Below, one piece after another: positions 1-6,000 of a stretch of DNA of 64,000 nucleotides. Positions within the stretch are counted from its first letter, which is position 1; each line of letters starts with the position of its first letter. Source of the DNA: a plasmid; the NCBI RefSeq assembly GCF_056746865.1, contig NZ_JBWKMP010000002.1; one strand, 5' to 3'. The position numbers are program-made.

Positions 1-3000
1 AGCTTGAAGAACAAGATCGACCACATGTAAAGGTAAAGCAGAAGCAAAAGCTATTTTGAAAGTGTCAAGAAGACTAAAGGTTTTTAACGTCATCGACGTG
101 CCAACCCAAGCTACTAATTGACGAATATCCATCACACTGTCTTCTGTACCAGAGTCATTTACTGCAATCGCTACTCTTACGAACTTCTCAATGACCTGAA
201 AAGGCAAAGAGCTATATCGTTTAGTAAGCACATTGGTTAAAGCAACTTTGTCGGGCTTCTCCATTTCAACTATCAAGAACCGCTTTATAAAAGCTGCATC
301 TTGACGTTGAGAAGAAACGAACCGGCGAGCGCCTCCACTCATGTTTGTGTTTGCAGTACCAATAAATCGCGTGTAGCCATTAGCAGTTATAACCTCACCA
401 CCATTAGCACTGAGTGACCAGGGCTTACGTTCAATGGGCATGTGAAGTTTTGCTGCCGTATCAGGATCGATTTTGTCCACTTCATCCAGAAGAATGAGGT
501 GACCATTACGAAATCCCGTTACCAAATCGCTGTGTACAAAACCTGTATTACCACCATTAAGACTGCGCTCACCTTCAAGCTCATCAACTCGAATATTGCT
601 GTTGATCTGCTTAATTGTCAGCGGCCAATTCATCATGTGGCTAATGTACATTACCATTTCAGTCTTGCCAGAACCGGACTCACCTTTAAGACACACACTT
701 AAATCTATATCCGGACTGATAAGCAGTTTAACCACTTGTTCAAGTATTCGGGGATTTGGTATGTAGTCTTTGTTCAGCGGAGCTCGATACGAGGTTTTAG
801 TTTTGAAAACAGGCACAGCCATCTTTGGATCCATTTCTGGAATACCAAAAAGGTCCTTTGCTAGAACTAAAAGATACTCACCTTTATCCACATAATGTTT
901 TAACTTTATAACATCCGGGGAAAGAAGAGCTTCTAATTTTTCATAAGCATCAGAAGATGTTTCATTTAACTTCATAGCGGCATTAGACATTTTTAACTCC
1001 GGTAAAATGCAAACACCGCCCTCTGGCAGATGTTTGCCAGTGGCATTTTATTTGAGATTCATTTGGCAAATAGTTGCCATCAGTTTCCTGATTTGAGGCA
1101 CATTATAACCAAGATGATTTCCCACTATTTCAAAAGCTTCAGACATGATCCATTCAAAATGATTTTCGAATATTGGATTGATTTCTAACTTGCCAAAAGC
1201 GTTTCGTTTAGTTAACAGATCACATGAAACAAGCTCGTCAAACAACTCTAATGTGGATTTAAAAGCTTTTATGTAAACATCCATAATTTCCCTGTCAGTC
1301 CATTTAACAGCCAGTTTTTTTTCTGACATTAAATAATCCTGATCAAAGAAGATGTCCCAGCCCATATCGTCATTGCAATCATGCAAAATGATTTCATCAT
1401 CATTCCTGCATTCAGCTAATTTCGTGTTTTCACTAATCGAACGATGCGAATGATAATAGAGCCATGATTTTAATTCCGCTCTAAATTCACATGCATCAAG
1501 TCCATGACATAAACAAGTGTATTCAAATGATTTTGACATATACCACCGTGTTTCAGCTTCTAAAAGTGGATTCACTGTGATATTACCATTGTCATCTTTG
1601 AAGAATAACTTTCTCCTCAACACTAGTTCTTTAATGATTTCCAAAGACTCTTCCATAGCGGATAGAAAAACAACATACACATCCTCAGGGGTCCATTCTA
1701 TTACCAGACCACCCAAATCTGGGTTATATTCTTCAACCGTATATAGATAATCTGTTTCTGCTGCAAAATTAATTGTATGCAAAATCTGATTTTTAAGTAA
1801 TTTGGATTTTTCATAAAGGTGATTTTCACGCCTTTCAGAATCATAATTTATCTCAGAAATGTTACTTTCTTCTGATTTAAAGTTTAATCCGGACGTGTAA
1901 GCATCATTTAAATGCTCTTTGGGTGAATCAACTATTTGCGTTATTTCATCTTCATCTATATCGAGTATAGAAAAAAAACTAAGTTGATTACTACTTATTG
2001 CAGTAGCCCTAAATTTTTGTTTCATGGGGACTCCAAAAGGAGAAATCCCATGAAGGGATTTCTCCCCTTTAGGGTGGGTTTAATGTCAGATCTGATTAAA
2101 GCTACTTTGTCCAAAACCTTTTAGAGGTTTAGGTATGTGAGCCAACTTACTTGTTGCTACCACTCTCATGTAGTCAAGAGGATGTTCTCTCCCTTCAATC
2201 ATAATAGTATCGACAACAATATAACCGGAGACCATCAACTCATCACCCTGATTTATACCAGTGAAACAGGTTGAATACATTTCAGGCGACACCTTGATTT
2301 GAACTGAAAATTCTCTCTCAGTGATTTCACCATCAACTTCTGTCTTCATCCTATTTTTGAGCTTTATTAACAAACCTATACTCTGGTCAGTCATTTTTTT
2401 CTCCACAGCACTGATAACTATCCCGGACACTTTTACTTCATTGATATATTCAAGATATGACATTTTCCGCTCCTCGATTTGTTCAAAGAGAAGCCCCGTT
2501 AGGGTTCCCCCTTAACAGGATTAAATAAATTTATTAGTTACATACATGAACGTGCAGACTACCAAACAGGCAATTCCGGCAATATGTAACCAATTTCTTG
2601 TTGGTTTAGTTGGTGCAATCGCTAAAGAGTTCTCCAACTTCTCTGTTACAAGACGTCGATTCTCTGCTTTAGCCGCATCATCTAAATATTGAGTTTCACG
2701 CTTAGCGAGAGTCTCAATTTTCGATTTTATTGCATGGTCCCATCCTTTAGTTTCAAAAACGCTTAACTCACTAAAGGTGTGCGTCATGAGATCTTCTGGG
2801 AAACCCAGTTTTTTCATTAACGGACGAATGGTATCATACATTTTTTCTACATTTTCGTAGTGGGCCTTTACTGCGACATCAAAACGCTTACGTAAAGTTA
2901 ATTTTTCACGTTTGCAAATGATGTCCGAAACCCAATTTATTAACTGCTCATTTTTGAGTTCACTGGCTTTTTCAAGTGAGTAATCCAGATTATCCACGTC

Positions 3001-6000
3001 AAGAAATGAATTTAATCCGTATTTTTCAAACTCCTCAACAAGATATTTATCCAGTTCAGTTAAGCTTTTAAAAAGTGGTACATCTGGGGAAGCTTTAAGA
3101 AGCTTATAAGCTCCTTCGAAATCAATTTTCTTGACCACGAGCTCCACAACATCCACATGATAATAGCTTGAATAAGCAGAAAGCTTTTCGGCCAACAAAG
3201 ACACAGGCTTAAGAGACTTAAGTTCAATGATATTTGGGCCGTCCTCATTCAAAATAACAATCAGTTCATTATCACGTTCTGTATATTTCATCAGAACTTC
3301 TAAGAGCTGTTTGTTTAGCGCCTTATCCATCTCTGGAATAATTTCACTAAAGGTTTGATGAAGGGCTTTACTGCGAGCTTTATTTTTAGACATTTGGGGT
3401 CACCTATATATAGTAAGAAGGAAGAAACAATTTTTTGTTTCAACACGAAGGCAAAGCCTGTCATTCATCTCCCGTAAGCTATGAACCGCCTGATTTATAC
3501 TATCTGGCATTAGAAGTACGCAACAAAAATAGCTCCAGGAGGAGCTAAATTAGTTACGGTTTGGTAAATTCAGATTGCCTTTTTCAGGCATGGGAAGTGC
3601 ACCAGCGACAAAGGTGACATTTTGCCGGTGGTGTCTTACAGCTTGTTTAAGCTGGCCGCTTTTCACGGCTAAATCAACGCTTAACGCGAAAGTAACTTTA
3701 AGCAAAGTTACTCAAATTTGGGAGCTGATATTTAAGCTCATTGTTTTTATACTATAGCTTTAAGCATAAGTAAATGCCCATATCGAATTATTCTGTATAA
3801 ACTGGAGAAATTCGAATATTAGCTGCTTCTTTTATCTTTTCTTCACTGCATTCTCTTAAAAAGAAAGAAGGGTCACCATACCACATTACAAAAAGTTGCT
3901 TTTCTGCACGCGTAAATCCAACATAAAGCAAACGTCTTTCTTCTTCTATTGCCTCCTCCCCAACTGATCTTTTACTTGGTATCTGATCCGCATTACAACT
4001 CATTATTATTACTTTATTCCACTCAAGACCCTTTGAACCATGCAAGGTTGATAGGACTACTTTCTCTGGGCTGTATTCCTCGTCCTTCTTCCTAGGGCCT
4101 AATGACATTGCAGCAGCACGATTGATCATATTCATCCAACCAGTCTTTTCTGCCCACTGTTTACAAGTGTCTAAAGCAATTTTTGTTAAGGTTGCTGTAC
4201 CTTTATTACTCCTCATCTTGATTGACGACGATTCCATCCATTTCGTAAGGTTGGCGAAACGTTTTGCTATCTCAACTTTATCAGTACTTTCCTGGGTAAA
4301 GCGCACGAAGTTTGAATGTAATGTTTTTGTTTCGAGAGAACTGTCCTCCGGGATGGCAAGGTCGCCAAAAGTAACTTTTCTTCCTCTCATACTCAATGCC
4401 ACATCATCCAAAACTGATTCCTGTTCTCCAAACAATGCCAATACTCTCTTCATTAAGCGAGGATCATTTGATTGTCGGAAAAAGGCCATAAGGCTTAACA
4501 CATCGCTTGTTTCTTTTTCATCCCAGAATGATTTACCTCCGTAACGAATTACTGGCTGTTCGATCAAACTTTCTAGCTCATCCAAGTGAGCATTATTGCG
4601 GCTTAGAATTGCCCATCCATGTGGATCCTGATTTATAAGGCTTAAAATACCCTGTATCTGTTCCTCCATATCTACATATGAACGAAAAGTGACCTTTCCT
4701 CCTCCCTTTTTTGCCGAGCGTAACTCTTTGGCATAACGGTAAACATTCTTTCCTATCAGTGCTCCGGCCACCTCTAAAATTTCAGGTTCACACCTAAAGC
4801 ATGTGTTTAAGTAAAATATGTTAGGTCTGAAGTGTTTTTCAAACTGTTGAAATATTTTGACTCCTCCTGAGGATCTGAAGGAGTAGATGGCCTGATCATC
4901 GTCTCCAACTATACTCGTATAGACTCCAGCTCTTGTATGCAATGCTATCCATGAGAATTGTATAGAGTCAGTATCCTGAACTTCGTCTACTATCAAATGT
5001 GTCAAATCTAACGTGCGCATTTTTCCCGAATGCATTTGACCGACAACAAATTTTGAAAGAGCATTGAGGTCCGCCACATGGTCTTTCTGGCATAACGCCT
5101 GATAGGTATTAAATAAATGGATCTGTTGTCTGTTATGCCGAACTGAAATCACATCCGTATCCATTTCTCTGCCGATAGCATCAATAACGAATTCAGCTTC
5201 AGCAAACTTCATCGTTACACCGGATTCTTTCAAAGCCCGGTGAATGACAGATCTCTGTGCTGGCCCTATCAACATCTTTCCCGGCCAGCGAATCATGTCC
5301 AGTTGCTTCTTAACGAGTCCGTGAAAAGTATCCACCAGCACCCGGTCAAGATCCTTCTTGCTCAATCGCTTTTGTAACTTTGCTGCAAGTGCGTTTGTTG
5401 CAGCGCGAGTAAAGGTCACCATCCCGATTCTTGCATATGGATACTTTTTGAGAATCGATATAACCGCTTCTATCATGGTGAATGATTTGCCTGATCCAGG
5501 CGCTGCTATCACCATATTGTTTGCGCTAGCATTCTCGATAACAGGTCTTTGCTCTTCTGTTGGCTTACCCATTTCAACCTCATTACTTCGTTTTAATAAT
5601 TATACATTTTTATAAAAGCGCTTTTCTTGTGTACTGCTGGTTCTACTGGAAATCACTTTTTTTCCTTTTTTATGCAATCAGGTTGTTTGTGAAACGCGTG
5701 ACTATGGAATAATGGTTCCATCTCCAAAAGACATTACAAAAAGGGCTTTAAATGAAACTTTTACGTTTAGTATCTCTGGTCTCTTCTGTCGTCATTGGTT
5801 TTTCCCTATCGGGTTGTGCCGGTGACACCGGCACTACGCCAGGCACCGCTCTGAATGCGTACAGTCACGGCCAGTACTGGCATGCTAAAGCAAATGATTC
5901 TGTCGCCAAGAATGCCTATTCGTTTGCTGGTTTCGACGTTAATTTTAAGGAGCAAGAGGTTACTCCTGGAGGGGATGCCGACAACTTTCTTTCTAAGTAT

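What the first reader, a model, noticed from the sequence alone, without database searches (positions are those of the whole stretch)
1..5572. AAA_5 ATPase operon with three unknown proteins next to a UvrD-like helicase, downstream of trhN
A four-gene minus-strand operon (290-aa tail-anchored protein, 125-aa protein, 325-aa protein, AAA_5/CobS/MoxR-like ATPase continuing beyond the window) is followed by a separately transcribed SF1 helicase with a complete motif set. AAA_5 ATPases usually work with a partner such as a VWA protein, and helicase plus ATPase combinations recur in defence and anti-defence islands as well as in plasmid DNA processing. The ATPase partner and the operon end are outside the window, so function cannot be assigned.
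Basis: inference. Interest (0 to 1): 0.45.

Follow-up and report, generated by a model that had tools for sequence, protein, structure and literature searches.

The report
IncHI plasmid conjugation-linked DNA-protection operon
This stretch is conserved backbone of IncHI2 resistance plasmids: the TrhI helicase gene followed by the start of a nine-gene operon, switched on together with conjugation, whose ATPase is a distant relative of one that shields IncC plasmids from restriction enzymes.

Summary
The window is IncHI2 plasmid backbone, 100% identical to over 1,100 sequenced plasmids. The helicase is the annotated conjugal-transfer helicase TrhI. The "four-gene operon" is the first four genes of a nine-gene operon:
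- 290-aa tail-anchored protein
- 125-aa protein
- 325-aa protein
- AAA_5 ATPase
- small ORF
- DUF3150 protein
- CobT-like VWA protein
- small ORF
- Toprim primase-like protein, followed by a strong terminator-like hairpin

New here: the 125-aa protein is an SSB/PriB-type OB fold. The 325-aa protein is a tandem duplication of an orphan domain. The helicase–SSB–AAA–DUF3150–VWA–primase set also recurs in Shewanella and Aeromonas plasmids.

The ATPase is a distant homologue (27% identity) of Vcrx089, the anti-restriction ATPase of the IncC "host defence evasion" operon. No Vcrx090, Bet or Exo homologue is present. Published R27 arrays show the nine orthologous genes induced 5–23-fold at the conjugation-permissive temperature, function unknown.

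Best reading: a conjugation-coupled establishment and defence-evasion module, not cobalamin synthesis and not a known phage-defence system. It is a new variant of a known kind and of moderate interest.

The parts
3788..5572 (-). trhI: UvrD/Rep-type SF1A helicase, 594 aa, annotated 'IncHI-type conjugal transfer helicase TrhI'. It is its own transcription unit.
   Evidence: ORF. Pfam UvrD-helicase and UvrD_C. Motifs I, Ia, II, III, V and VI found. Annotation in identical plasmids. Homologues of 29-32% identity sit next to the same module in Aeromonas and Shewanella plasmids.
3522..3745 (-). Highly structured spacer: a row of short hairpins ending in a terminator-like hairpin (3547-3530) plus a T tract. 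It could be the trhI 3' end, a small RNA or a DNA-level signal; which one is undetermined.
   Evidence: RNA fold MFE -70.4 against shuffles -45.7+/-3.8, z -6.4. Terminator scan. The equivalent spacer of the Klebsiella lineage is also structured, z -3.9. No Rfam match.
3449..3515 (-). Conserved non-coding block with a -10-like TATAAA at 3499-3494. Probable promoter/operator of the nine-gene operon.
   Evidence: A 28-nt core of the block is identical (apart from the one ambiguous pattern position) in IncHI1, IncHI2 and Pseudocitrobacter loci, and differs by two insertions in two Klebsiella lineages whose flanking proteins are only 25-50% identical. Single copy in the window. No significant RNA fold.
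2521..3393 (-). Gene 1 of the operon: 290-aa protein with a C-terminal membrane anchor, restricted to the IncHI-type lineage (R27 R0002 orthologue).
   Evidence: ORF. No Pfam, PADLOC, NCBIfam or PHROG match. Only 22 representatives among 1.84 billion. Conserved C-terminal hydrophobic segment.
2086..2463 (-). Gene 2: 125-aa SSB/PriB-type OB-fold protein (R27 R0001 orthologue).
   Evidence: AlphaFold2 mean pLDDT 83.8. All top 50 Foldseek PDB matches are OB-fold proteins, nearly all bacterial or mitochondrial SSB or PriB; E from 4e-6, TM (target-normalised) up to 0.79. The profile's only PDB hit is the D. radiodurans SSB OB domain, E 0.03. JGI names it 'primosomal replication protein N'. A canonical SSB lies among the genes between the helicase and the ATPase in the Shewanella plasmid.
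1048..2025 (-). Gene 3: 325-aa protein made of two copies of a ~110-aa domain with no detectable relatives (R27 R0210 orthologue by gene order).
1..990 (-). Gene 4, first 330 of 352 codons: CobS/CbbQ-type AAA_5 ATPase, a distant homologue of the IncC anti-restriction ATPase Vcrx089. It continues 66 bp beyond the window.
   Evidence: Pfam AAA_5 E 5e-28. Walker A and B intact. 27% identity to Vcrx089, E 2e-26, and it is the only match to Vcrx089 in the window and locus. Solved relatives are midasin, NorQ, CobS and CbbQ.
5752..6624 (+). Context: 290-aa lipoprotein gene convergent with trhN. It occupies the position that the surface-exclusion gene sfx occupies next to traN in IncC plasmids.
   Evidence: ORF with signal peptide and LSGC lipobox. 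Conserved at 40% identity in the Klebsiella lineage. sfx literature. No sequence similarity to IncC Sfx.
6653..9841 (-). Context: trhN (TraN-type mating-pair stabilisation protein), last gene of the Tra2 AN operon.
   Evidence: ORF. Annotation. 26% identity to IncC TraN.

Best explanation

trhI (a UvrD-type helicase) is transcribed on its own.

A conserved promoter about 100 bp upstream of the 290-aa gene then drives a nine-gene operon: tail-anchored 290-aa protein, SSB/PriB-like OB-fold protein, 325-aa tandem-repeat protein, CobS-like AAA+ ATPase, small ORF, DUF3150 protein, CobT-like VWA protein, small ORF, Toprim primase-like protein.

The operon is switched on together with the transfer genes. 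This is shown for R27.

Inferred mechanism:
- Its products act on the transferred DNA when the plasmid enters or leaves a cell.
- The SSB-like protein, the primase and possibly TrhI handle the single strand and prime complementary-strand synthesis.
- The AAA+ hexamer, with its VWA/MIDAS adaptor and the DUF3150 protein, works like other CbbQ/NorQ/CobS-VWA pairs. It would be an ATP-driven remodeller of a protein target, most likely a host restriction complex, as shown genetically for its IncC homologue Vcrx089.

Shown: gene content, homologies, synteny and the co-regulation of the R27 orthologues.

Inferred: site of action, target, and the partnership of ATPase, VWA and DUF3150.
For: - Identity: the region is 100% identical to IncHI2 plasmids, and 1,378 of 1,398 matching records keep at least 80% of it.
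- Operon extent: minus-strand genes with 57-131 bp gaps run up to a strong terminator-like hairpin after the Toprim gene.
[quoted passage not shown] Gene order in NC_002305 maps these tags onto the nine genes.
- ATPase: homologous to Vcrx089, E 2e-26.
[quoted passage not shown] Their deletion raises EcoKI and EcoBI restriction 400-900-fold (PMC11602122).
- IncC synteny: the IncC operon also carries DUF3150 and a CobT-like VWA protein on the same mRNA.
- Motifs: MIDAS and Walker motifs are intact.
- Structural relatives: the nearest solved relatives of the ATPase are midasin, NorQ, CobS and CbbQ, and of the IncC VWA homologue NorD and, marginally, CobT.
- Recurrence: the set helicase, AAA, DUF3150, VWA and Toprim recurs in Aeromonas and Shewanella plasmids with 20-33% identical proteins, with an SSB as well in Shewanella.
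- 125-aa protein: it has an SSB/PriB fold.
- SXT: the equivalent operon is activated by SetCD, the conjugation master activator.
Against: - No Vcrx090, Bet or Exo homologue was found. In IncC, vcrx089 and vcrx090 were deleted and complemented together.
- The ATPase lacks a detectable CbbQ_C domain (compared).
- 27% identity does not guarantee the same target.
- In the IncC TnSeq the DUF3150 and VWA genes were not among the five depleted genes, so the proposed ATPase-VWA-DUF3150 partnership has no genetic support yet.
- In SXT, deletions in this region (bet, exo, s067, s068, s070) cost 10-fold or less in transfer between laboratory strains.
- The operon is not next to oriT as far as known for R27 (my own knowledge, not tested here). 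It is therefore not a classical leading region.
- No experiment on any IncHI gene of this operon was found in the papers I could search.
Confidence: 0.55

Rival explanations
1. A plasmid-encoded primosome or establishment module with no direct anti-defence role. TrhI, the SSB/PriB-like protein and the Toprim primase convert the incoming single strand to a duplex, or support vegetative or rolling-circle replication during transfer. The AAA+/VWA/DUF3150 trio acts as an assembly chaperone or loader for that machinery.
For: - Helicase, SSB-type and primase-type genes are kept together with the trio in four or more plasmid lineages.
- The Toprim protein matches phage DNA primase phrog_510, E 1e-27.
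- The 125-aa protein has a PriB/SSB fold.
- The operon is co-induced with conjugation.
- The spacer upstream is rich in hairpins, as single-strand initiation signals are.
Against: - The only genetic data for a homologue of the ATPase point to restriction evasion, not replication.
- Natural IncHI2 plasmids survive IS insertions in trhI, the 290-aa gene, the 325-aa gene and the ATPase gene. None of these is therefore needed for maintenance.
- AAA_5/VWA pairs are not known replication loaders (my own knowledge of the family).
Confidence: 0.25
2. A plasmid-borne anti-phage or anti-plasmid defence system. This could be an NTP-dependent AAA+/VWA conflict system, or a Gabija-like helicase/Toprim pair, that protects the host cell.
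For: - TrhI matches GajB models, E 3e-42.
- AAA_5 plus VWA architectures occur in conflict systems (my own knowledge of the field).
- A Toprim protein is present in the same cluster.
Against: - The GajB match is what any UvrD-family helicase gives. The same protein scores 175-180 bits on the Rep and UvrD models.
- No GajA model matches any neighbour, and no PADLOC model matches the DUF3150, VWA, 290-, 125- or 325-aa proteins. The ATPase reaches only E 2e-4.
- The Toprim protein is primase-like (DUF7146 plus Toprim_3, phrog_510) with no ATPase domain.
- The cluster is fixed backbone next to traN in several plasmid families, not a variable island.
- It is regulated with the transfer genes.
Confidence: 0.07
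3. A cobalt-chelatase (CobS/CobT) or other metabolic metal-insertion system carried as plasmid cargo.
For: - PHROG phrog_249 'porphyrin biosynthesis', E 2.5e-30, for the ATPase.
- Weak matches to CobS.
- Pfam CobT N-terminal domain in three of six relatives of the VWA protein.
Against: - TIGR01650 CobS scores 34 bits against a cut-off of 558.
- There is no CobN and there are no cobalamin genes in 35.7 kb around the cluster.
- All neighbours are DNA-metabolism or transfer genes.
- The nearest characterised homologue has an anti-restriction phenotype.
Confidence: 0.02

Closest known systems
hde (host defence evasion) operon of IncC plasmids: vcrx087-vcrx094, with the vcrx089-vcrx090 anti-restriction pair (Roy et al. 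2020, PMC7498323; Dimitriu et al. 2024, PMC11602122; AntiDefenseFinder model 'vcrx089_090', PMC11724313)
   Same: - Same place in the backbone, after traN and a convergent lipoprotein gene.
- Homologous AAA_5 ATPase (27% identity), DUF3150 protein and CobT-like VWA protein.
- An SSB-type protein in the operon.
- Expression tied to conjugation.
   Different: - No Vcrx090, Bet or Exo homologue.
- The ATPase has no detectable CbbQ_C domain.
- In IncHI the ATPase, DUF3150 and VWA genes are contiguous, whereas in IncC they are separated by vcrx090-ssb-bet-exo.
- IncHI adds the TrhI helicase, a Toprim primase and two lineage-specific proteins (290 and 325 aa).
- No phenotype is known for the IncHI genes.
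R27 (IncHI1) gene cluster R0204-R0002 (Front Mol Biosci 2020, PMC7366339)
   Same: Direct orthologues in the same order. The ATPase is 76% identical and the DUF3150 protein about 79%. R27 is the only member with expression data: 5-23-fold induction at 25 C.
   Different: [quoted passage not shown] The link to IncC hde, the SSB fold and the CobS/CobT-like pairing are made here.
s089 operon of SXT/R391 integrative conjugative elements (SetCD regulon, PMC4344509; core-gene deletions, PMC2791158)
   Same: A large operon after traN, activated by the conjugation master regulator. It contains a homologue of the ATPase (Orf70, 53% identical to Vcrx089 according to PMC7498323) and ssb.
   Different: - It carries the Bet/Exo recombination system.
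- It has a different regulator (SetCD rather than TrhR/TrhY-HtdA).
CbbQ-CbbO, NorQ-NorD and CobS-CobT: AAA_5 hexamers with a VWA/MIDAS adaptor
   Same: - AAA_5 ATPase with intact Walker motifs plus a large partner with a C-terminal VWA domain and a DxSxS MIDAS motif.
- The nearest solved relatives of the ATPase are midasin, NorQ, CobS and CbbQ; those of the IncC VWA homologue are NorD and, marginally, CobT.
   Different: - The scores are far below the family cut-offs.
- The context is DNA metabolism on a conjugative plasmid.
- A third conserved component (DUF3150) is present.
- The target protein is unknown.
Leading-region establishment genes of IncF/IncI/IncP plasmids (ssb, psiB, ardA, sog/traC primase)
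   Same: The same functional mix: SSB, primase and an anti-restriction candidate, expressed in connection with transfer.
   Different: The proteins are unrelated apart from the OB fold. The cluster is not known to lie next to oriT. Early expression from single-stranded DNA is not shown.

Membership tests
Vcrx089-Vcrx090 anti-restriction system (IncC hde) | AAA_5 ATPase homologous to Vcrx089 | tested here: met
   BLASTP gives 27% identity over 275 aa, E 2e-26. Vcrx089 finds only this gene in the window and locus by tblastn, E 1e-24. The IncHI2 ATPase finds IncC plasmids as its next tier of hits in PLSDB.
Vcrx089-Vcrx090 anti-restriction system (IncC hde) | CbbQ_C C-terminal domain on the ATPase | tested here: not met
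   Pfam reports only AAA_5 for the IncHI2 protein at E <= 0.01. Vcrx089 gives CbbQ_C at E 4e-15. The pairwise alignment does extend into that region, so the domain may be diverged rather than absent.
Vcrx089-Vcrx090 anti-restriction system (IncC hde) | Adjacent Vcrx090 homologue | tested here: not met
   No BLASTP or tblastn hit in the 64-kb window, L001 or L003. Profiles of the 325-aa and 290-aa families against Vcrx090 give hhalign probabilities of 0.1% and 1.4%.
Vcrx089-Vcrx090 anti-restriction system (IncC hde) | Same operon as ssb-bet-exo | tested here: not met
   An SSB/PriB-fold protein is present. No Bet or Exo homologue is found, and there is no sequence match to the IncC SSB.
Vcrx089-Vcrx090 anti-restriction system (IncC hde) | Protects incoming plasmid DNA from type I restriction, acting in the recipient | not testable with these tools
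   This needs mating assays with deletion mutants into hsdR+ and hsdR- recipients.
Vcrx089-Vcrx090 anti-restriction system (IncC hde) | Expression coupled to conjugation | tested here: met
   Taken from the literature for the R27 orthologues: 5-23-fold induction at the permissive temperature. The tags were mapped onto the genes through NC_002305. Not measured for IncHI2 itself.
AAA_5 + VWA remodelling pair (CbbQ/CbbO, NorQ/NorD, CobS/CobT class) | AAA_5 ATPase with intact Walker A and B motifs | tested here: met
   Pfam AAA_5 E 5e-28. GESGSGKT and LILLDE are present. PDB relatives are midasin, NorQ, CobS and CbbQ.
AAA_5 + VWA remodelling pair (CbbQ/CbbO, NorQ/NorD, CobS/CobT class) | Partner protein with a C-terminal VWA domain and MIDAS motif in the same operon | tested here: met
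   A 670-aa protein three genes downstream has Pfam VWA, E 2e-7. Its DISAS...T...TDG motif is conserved in four lineages. The IncC homologue's best solved relative is NorD, E 1.5e-4.
Aerobic cobaltochelatase CobS/CobT/CobN | CobS equivalog score, and CobN or cobalamin genes nearby | tested here: not met
   TIGR01650 scores 34.4 bits against a cut-off of 558.55. No CobN and no cob genes are found among 32 annotated features.
Gabija (GajA + GajB) | GajA (ABC ATPase fused to a Toprim nuclease) next to a GajB helicase | tested here: not met
   TrhI matches GajB models (E 3e-42), but no protein of the cluster matches a GajA model. The Toprim protein gives only RTasDnaG-like, E 0.004.
Bacterial SSB/PriB OB-fold family (125-aa protein) | OB fold of the SSB/PriB type | tested here: met
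   The model has mean pLDDT 83.8. All top 50 Foldseek PDB hits are OB-fold proteins, nearly all SSB or PriB.
Bacterial SSB/PriB OB-fold family (125-aa protein) | Pfam SSB signature and the acidic C-terminal tip (DDDIPF type) of canonical SSB | tested here: not met
   No Pfam match. The sequence ends ...GFGQSSFNQI. hhalign against E. coli PriB gives E 0.024 and against the IncC SSB gives nothing.
Bacterial SSB/PriB OB-fold family (125-aa protein) | Binds single-stranded DNA | not testable with these tools
   This needs EMSA or fluorescence anisotropy with purified protein.
UvrD/Rep SF1A helicases (TrhI) | Full motif set and both RecA-like domains | tested here: met
   Pfam UvrD-helicase, UvrD_C and AAA_19. 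Motifs I, Ia, II, III, V and VI found. The protein scores 175-180 bits on the Rep and UvrD models but far below their equivalog cut-offs. It is a separate plasmid lineage annotated as TrhI.

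The most novel reading that the evidence does not exclude
The CobS-like ATPase, the DUF3150 protein and the CobT-like VWA protein form one three-part, ATP-driven machine. Mobile elements would use it to disarm DNA-translocating restriction complexes in a newly entered cell, and it would work alongside an element-encoded helicase, SSB and primase.

The VWA protein's N-terminal domain carries an invariant HExxH...NxxxDxxxE motif.

If this is true, three things follow:
- The IncC 'vcrx089-090' system has been defined too narrowly, because vcrx094 and vcrx095 would be part of it.
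- IncHI plasmids would carry a Vcrx090-independent version.
- The 'cobS/cobT porphyrin biosynthesis' genes annotated in many large phages might be anti-defence genes rather than metabolic ones.
Probability: 0.2. Interest if true: 0.7.

Novelty: new variant of a known kind. Interest (0 to 1): 0.45.

Why it matters
IncHI1 and IncHI2 plasmids carry multidrug resistance in typhoid Salmonella and spread mcr-1 and other last-line resistance genes in E. coli, Salmonella and Enterobacter. Their host range depends on surviving the recipient's restriction and CRISPR barriers, yet in the papers I could search no anti-defence function had been assigned to the IncHI backbone.

This analysis gives the unannotated, conjugation-induced nine-gene cluster of R27 and IncHI2 a testable role. 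It names candidate partners (VWA, DUF3150) for an anti-restriction ATPase whose mechanism was still undescribed in the papers I could search. It also shows that a helicase–SSB–ATPase–VWA–primase set is a recurrent module of MPF_F-type plasmids from three orders of Gammaproteobacteria (MOBH relaxase typing where available).

If confirmed, the module is a possible target for limiting plasmid spread. It would also be a reason to re-examine phage 'cobS/cobT' genes.

Tried and rejected
- **Vcrx090 equivalent.** I looked for one among the IncHI proteins by BLASTP, tblastn and profile comparison. Nothing was found.
- **290-aa versus 325-aa families.** Profile-profile comparison shows no relation.
- **Wider survey of DUF3150 loci.** The first alignment was too divergent to search with. 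The narrower one found only two close relatives. The word-indexed protein search also returned only the IncHI lineage. The family-wide context therefore rests on five plasmid lineages taken from PLSDB.
- **Phage homologues.** The DUF3150 and VWA proteins have none by tblastn. The ATPase finds only cyanophage 'cobS' genes at about 28% identity.
- **Repeated operator.** No motif is shared between this promoter block and the rest of the 64-kb window.
- **Leader RNA.** The promoter-proximal leader is not a structured RNA, z -0.28.
- **Covariation in the hairpin-rich spacer.** MAFFT put the two lineages out of register, so the pair counts are not usable.
- **HExxH in true CobT.** I tried to check this through the PDB sequences, but no N-terminal alignment was obtained.
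- **Original trhI papers.** Lawley 2003 (PMC145343) is not held, so whether trhI mutants transfer is not known to me from a source.
- **Paralogy among the cluster's proteins.** None was found.

Full report
**What is there**

Window 1-5700 is 100% identical to IncHI2 plasmids. 1,398 PLSDB records match, 1,115 of them at 99% identity or more, and 1,378 keep at least 80% of the stretch. I read the missing context from pSTM6-275 (locus L001).

Reading on the minus strand:
- trhN (window 9841-6653)
- a convergent lipoprotein gene on the plus strand (5752-6624)
- trhI (5572-3788)
- a 394-bp spacer
- a run of same-strand genes separated by 57-131 bp

The run consists of a 290-aa gene (3393-2521), a 125-aa gene (2463-2086), a 325-aa gene (2025-1048) and an AAA_5 ATPase (990 to beyond the window, 352 aa). 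Outside the window it continues with a 57-aa ORF, a DUF3150 protein (375 aa), a VWA protein (670 aa), a 73-aa ORF and a Toprim_3/DUF7146 protein (410 aa). A 9-bp GC-rich terminator-like hairpin and a 270-bp gap follow.

The 'four-gene operon' is the front of a nine-gene unit.

**The individual proteins**

- **TrhI.** It has the full SF1A motif set and the UvrD-helicase and UvrD_C domains. It is annotated 'IncHI-type conjugal transfer helicase TrhI' in identical plasmids.
- **ATPase.** It has intact Walker A and B motifs. Its solved relatives are midasin, NorQ, CobS and CbbQ. It scores 34 bits on the CobS equivalog model, whose cut-off is 558.
- **VWA protein.** It has an intact DxSxS...T...D MIDAS motif and an acidic linker. 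Its N-terminal domain matches Pfam CobT in three of six lineages. For its IncC homologue the best solved relative is NorD.
- **125-aa protein.** It had no family match. It models confidently (pLDDT 83.8) as an OB fold whose top 50 PDB neighbours are OB-fold proteins, nearly all bacterial or mitochondrial SSB or PriB. JGI had named it 'primosomal replication protein N'.
- **325-aa protein.** It is a tandem duplication of a ~110-aa domain (hhalign 98%, E 7e-14). Only 11 clusters exist among 5.8 billion proteins, and no structural neighbour was found.
- **290-aa protein.** It has a conserved C-terminal membrane anchor. Only 22 relatives exist among 1.84 billion representatives.

**Comparison with other elements**

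IncHI1 (R27, p10068) and a Klebsiella IncFIB/HI1B-type plasmid have exactly the same order. The ATPase is 76% and 52% identical respectively. In the Klebsiella plasmid the three small unknown proteins are only 20-32% identical.

IncC plasmids have, after traN and two opposite-strand genes (sfx and acaB):
- two small ORFs
- an AAA_5+CbbQ_C ATPase
- a 302-aa protein
- ssb, bet and exo
- a DUF3150 protein
- a CobT-like VWA protein

The IncHI2 ATPase, DUF3150 and VWA proteins are homologous to the IncC ones (27%, 19% and 22% identity; E 2e-26, 3e-4 and 1e-23).

A Shewanella plasmid has traN, a lipoprotein, a TrhI-like helicase, a canonical SSB, and then AAA, DUF3150, VWA and Toprim genes. An Aeromonas plasmid has helicase, Toprim, AAA, DUF3150 and VWA genes.

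The set helicase, AAA, DUF3150, VWA and primase is thus a recurrent module of large Gammaproteobacterial plasmids that carry MPF_F-type transfer genes or a traN, with an SSB or SSB-like protein in three of the lineages. The helicase belongs with it rather than being an accidental neighbour.

**What is known experimentally**

- **IncC.** The ATPase gene is vcrx089. [quoted passage not shown]
- **E. coli.** Deleting vcrx089-090 raises EcoKI and EcoBI restriction 400-900-fold (PMC11602122). AntiDefenseFinder carries a 'vcrx089_090' model.
- **SXT.** The equivalent operon is SetCD-activated. Deletions in it cost 10-fold or less in laboratory matings.
[quoted passage not shown] Gene order in NC_002305 maps these tags one-to-one onto the nine genes. 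trhI (R0003) is not among the genes listed with altered expression.

**Interpretation**

The best-supported reading is a conjugation-coupled establishment and defence-evasion operon. In this reading the SSB-like protein, the primase and probably TrhI handle transferred single-stranded DNA. The AAA+/VWA/DUF3150 trio is an ATP-driven remodeller aimed at a host factor, most plausibly restriction complexes.

The partnership of ATPase with VWA and DUF3150 is my inference. It rests on their contiguity in IncHI, Shewanella and Aeromonas plasmids and on how this ATPase class works elsewhere. The held papers do not discuss it.

It is not a full member of the vcrx089-090 system. No Vcrx090, Bet or Exo homologue exists, and CbbQ_C is not detected.

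The known defence systems tested do not match. Only generic GajB similarity appears for the helicase, with no GajA.

A cobalamin function is excluded.

Natural IS insertions in trhI, the 290-aa gene, the 325-aa gene and the ATPase gene show that none of these is needed for plasmid maintenance.

**The spacer**

Between trhI and the operon lie two features.
- A 224-nt stretch folds into a row of hairpins ending in a terminator-like hairpin (z -6.4). The distant Klebsiella lineage keeps a similar architecture with different hairpin sequences (z -3.9).
- A ~67-nt block with a TATAAA box is almost unchanged across lineages whose flanking proteins have diverged to 25-50% identity. It is probably the regulated promoter.

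**Verdict**

This is a new variant of a known kind: an IncHI version of the Vcrx089-type module. The cluster was already seen as an unexplained thermoregulated cluster in R27. Interest is moderate.

Noticed in passing
window 3522-3745 (- strand): The spacer after trhI folds into about eight consecutive short hairpins plus a terminator-like hairpin (MFE -70.4 against -45.7+/-3.8 for shuffles, z -6.4; opposite strand z -4.1). The equivalent spacer of a distant Klebsiella plasmid (L003 6165-6371) is also structured (z -3.9). It has two short hairpins of different sequence, a long hairpin with the same CACCA...UGGUG base, and a terminator. There is no Rfam match. It could be the trhI 3' UTR, a small RNA or a single-strand DNA signal.
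   Followed up: partly
window 3449-3515 (- strand): A non-coding block whose 28-nt core (AATGCCAGAWAGTATAAATCAGGCGGTT) is identical in IncHI1, IncHI2 and a Pseudocitrobacter plasmid. It differs by two insertions in two Klebsiella lineages, although the neighbouring proteins there are only 25-50% identical. It is probably the promoter/operator of the operon. The window holds no second copy.
   Followed up: partly
window 5752-6624 (+ strand): A 290-aa lipoprotein gene (signal peptide ending LSGC) convergent with trhN. It sits where the surface-exclusion gene sfx sits beside traN in IncC plasmids. There is no sequence similarity to IncC Sfx, but the Shewanella counterpart is weakly similar to Sfx (E 1e-5). 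It may be an IncHI surface-exclusion factor matched to TrhN.
   Followed up: partly
L001 11346-13358 (- strand; VWA protein, outside the window): The N-terminal CobT-like domain carries residues that are invariant in six lineages of 23-69% identity: G..HE..H...T, then N...D...E. This is a zincin-like pattern. Whether genuine CobT shares it could not be checked.
   Followed up: partly
L001 13436-14563 (- strand; DUF3150 protein, outside the window): After the DUF3150 domain comes a poorly conserved acidic tail that ends in an aromatic residue in all lineages aligned (...KGW; IncC ...DDDGDYFF). It is reminiscent of a protein-docking tip.
   Followed up: no
L001 5000-22000: Terminator-like hairpins are enriched (27 found against 12.0+/-3.5 expected). 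Many sit in the short gaps between genes of the operon, for example after the 57-aa ORF, the VWA gene, the 73-aa ORF and the Toprim gene. This would fit the falling induction along the R27 operon.
   Followed up: no
L009, L010, L011, L012 (IncHI2 plasmids from isolates): Natural IS insertions interrupt the 290-aa gene (IS1A), trhI (IS903B; no trhI CDS is annotated in that plasmid), the 325-aa gene (IS2) and the 5' end of the ATPase gene (ISApl1). The plasmids still persist in isolates.
   Followed up: yes
L001 5963-9436 (- strand, outside the window): Four further same-strand genes after the Toprim terminator (173, 292, 311 and 306 aa) have no Pfam match and are not paralogues of each other. 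They are conserved in IncHI1.
   Followed up: partly
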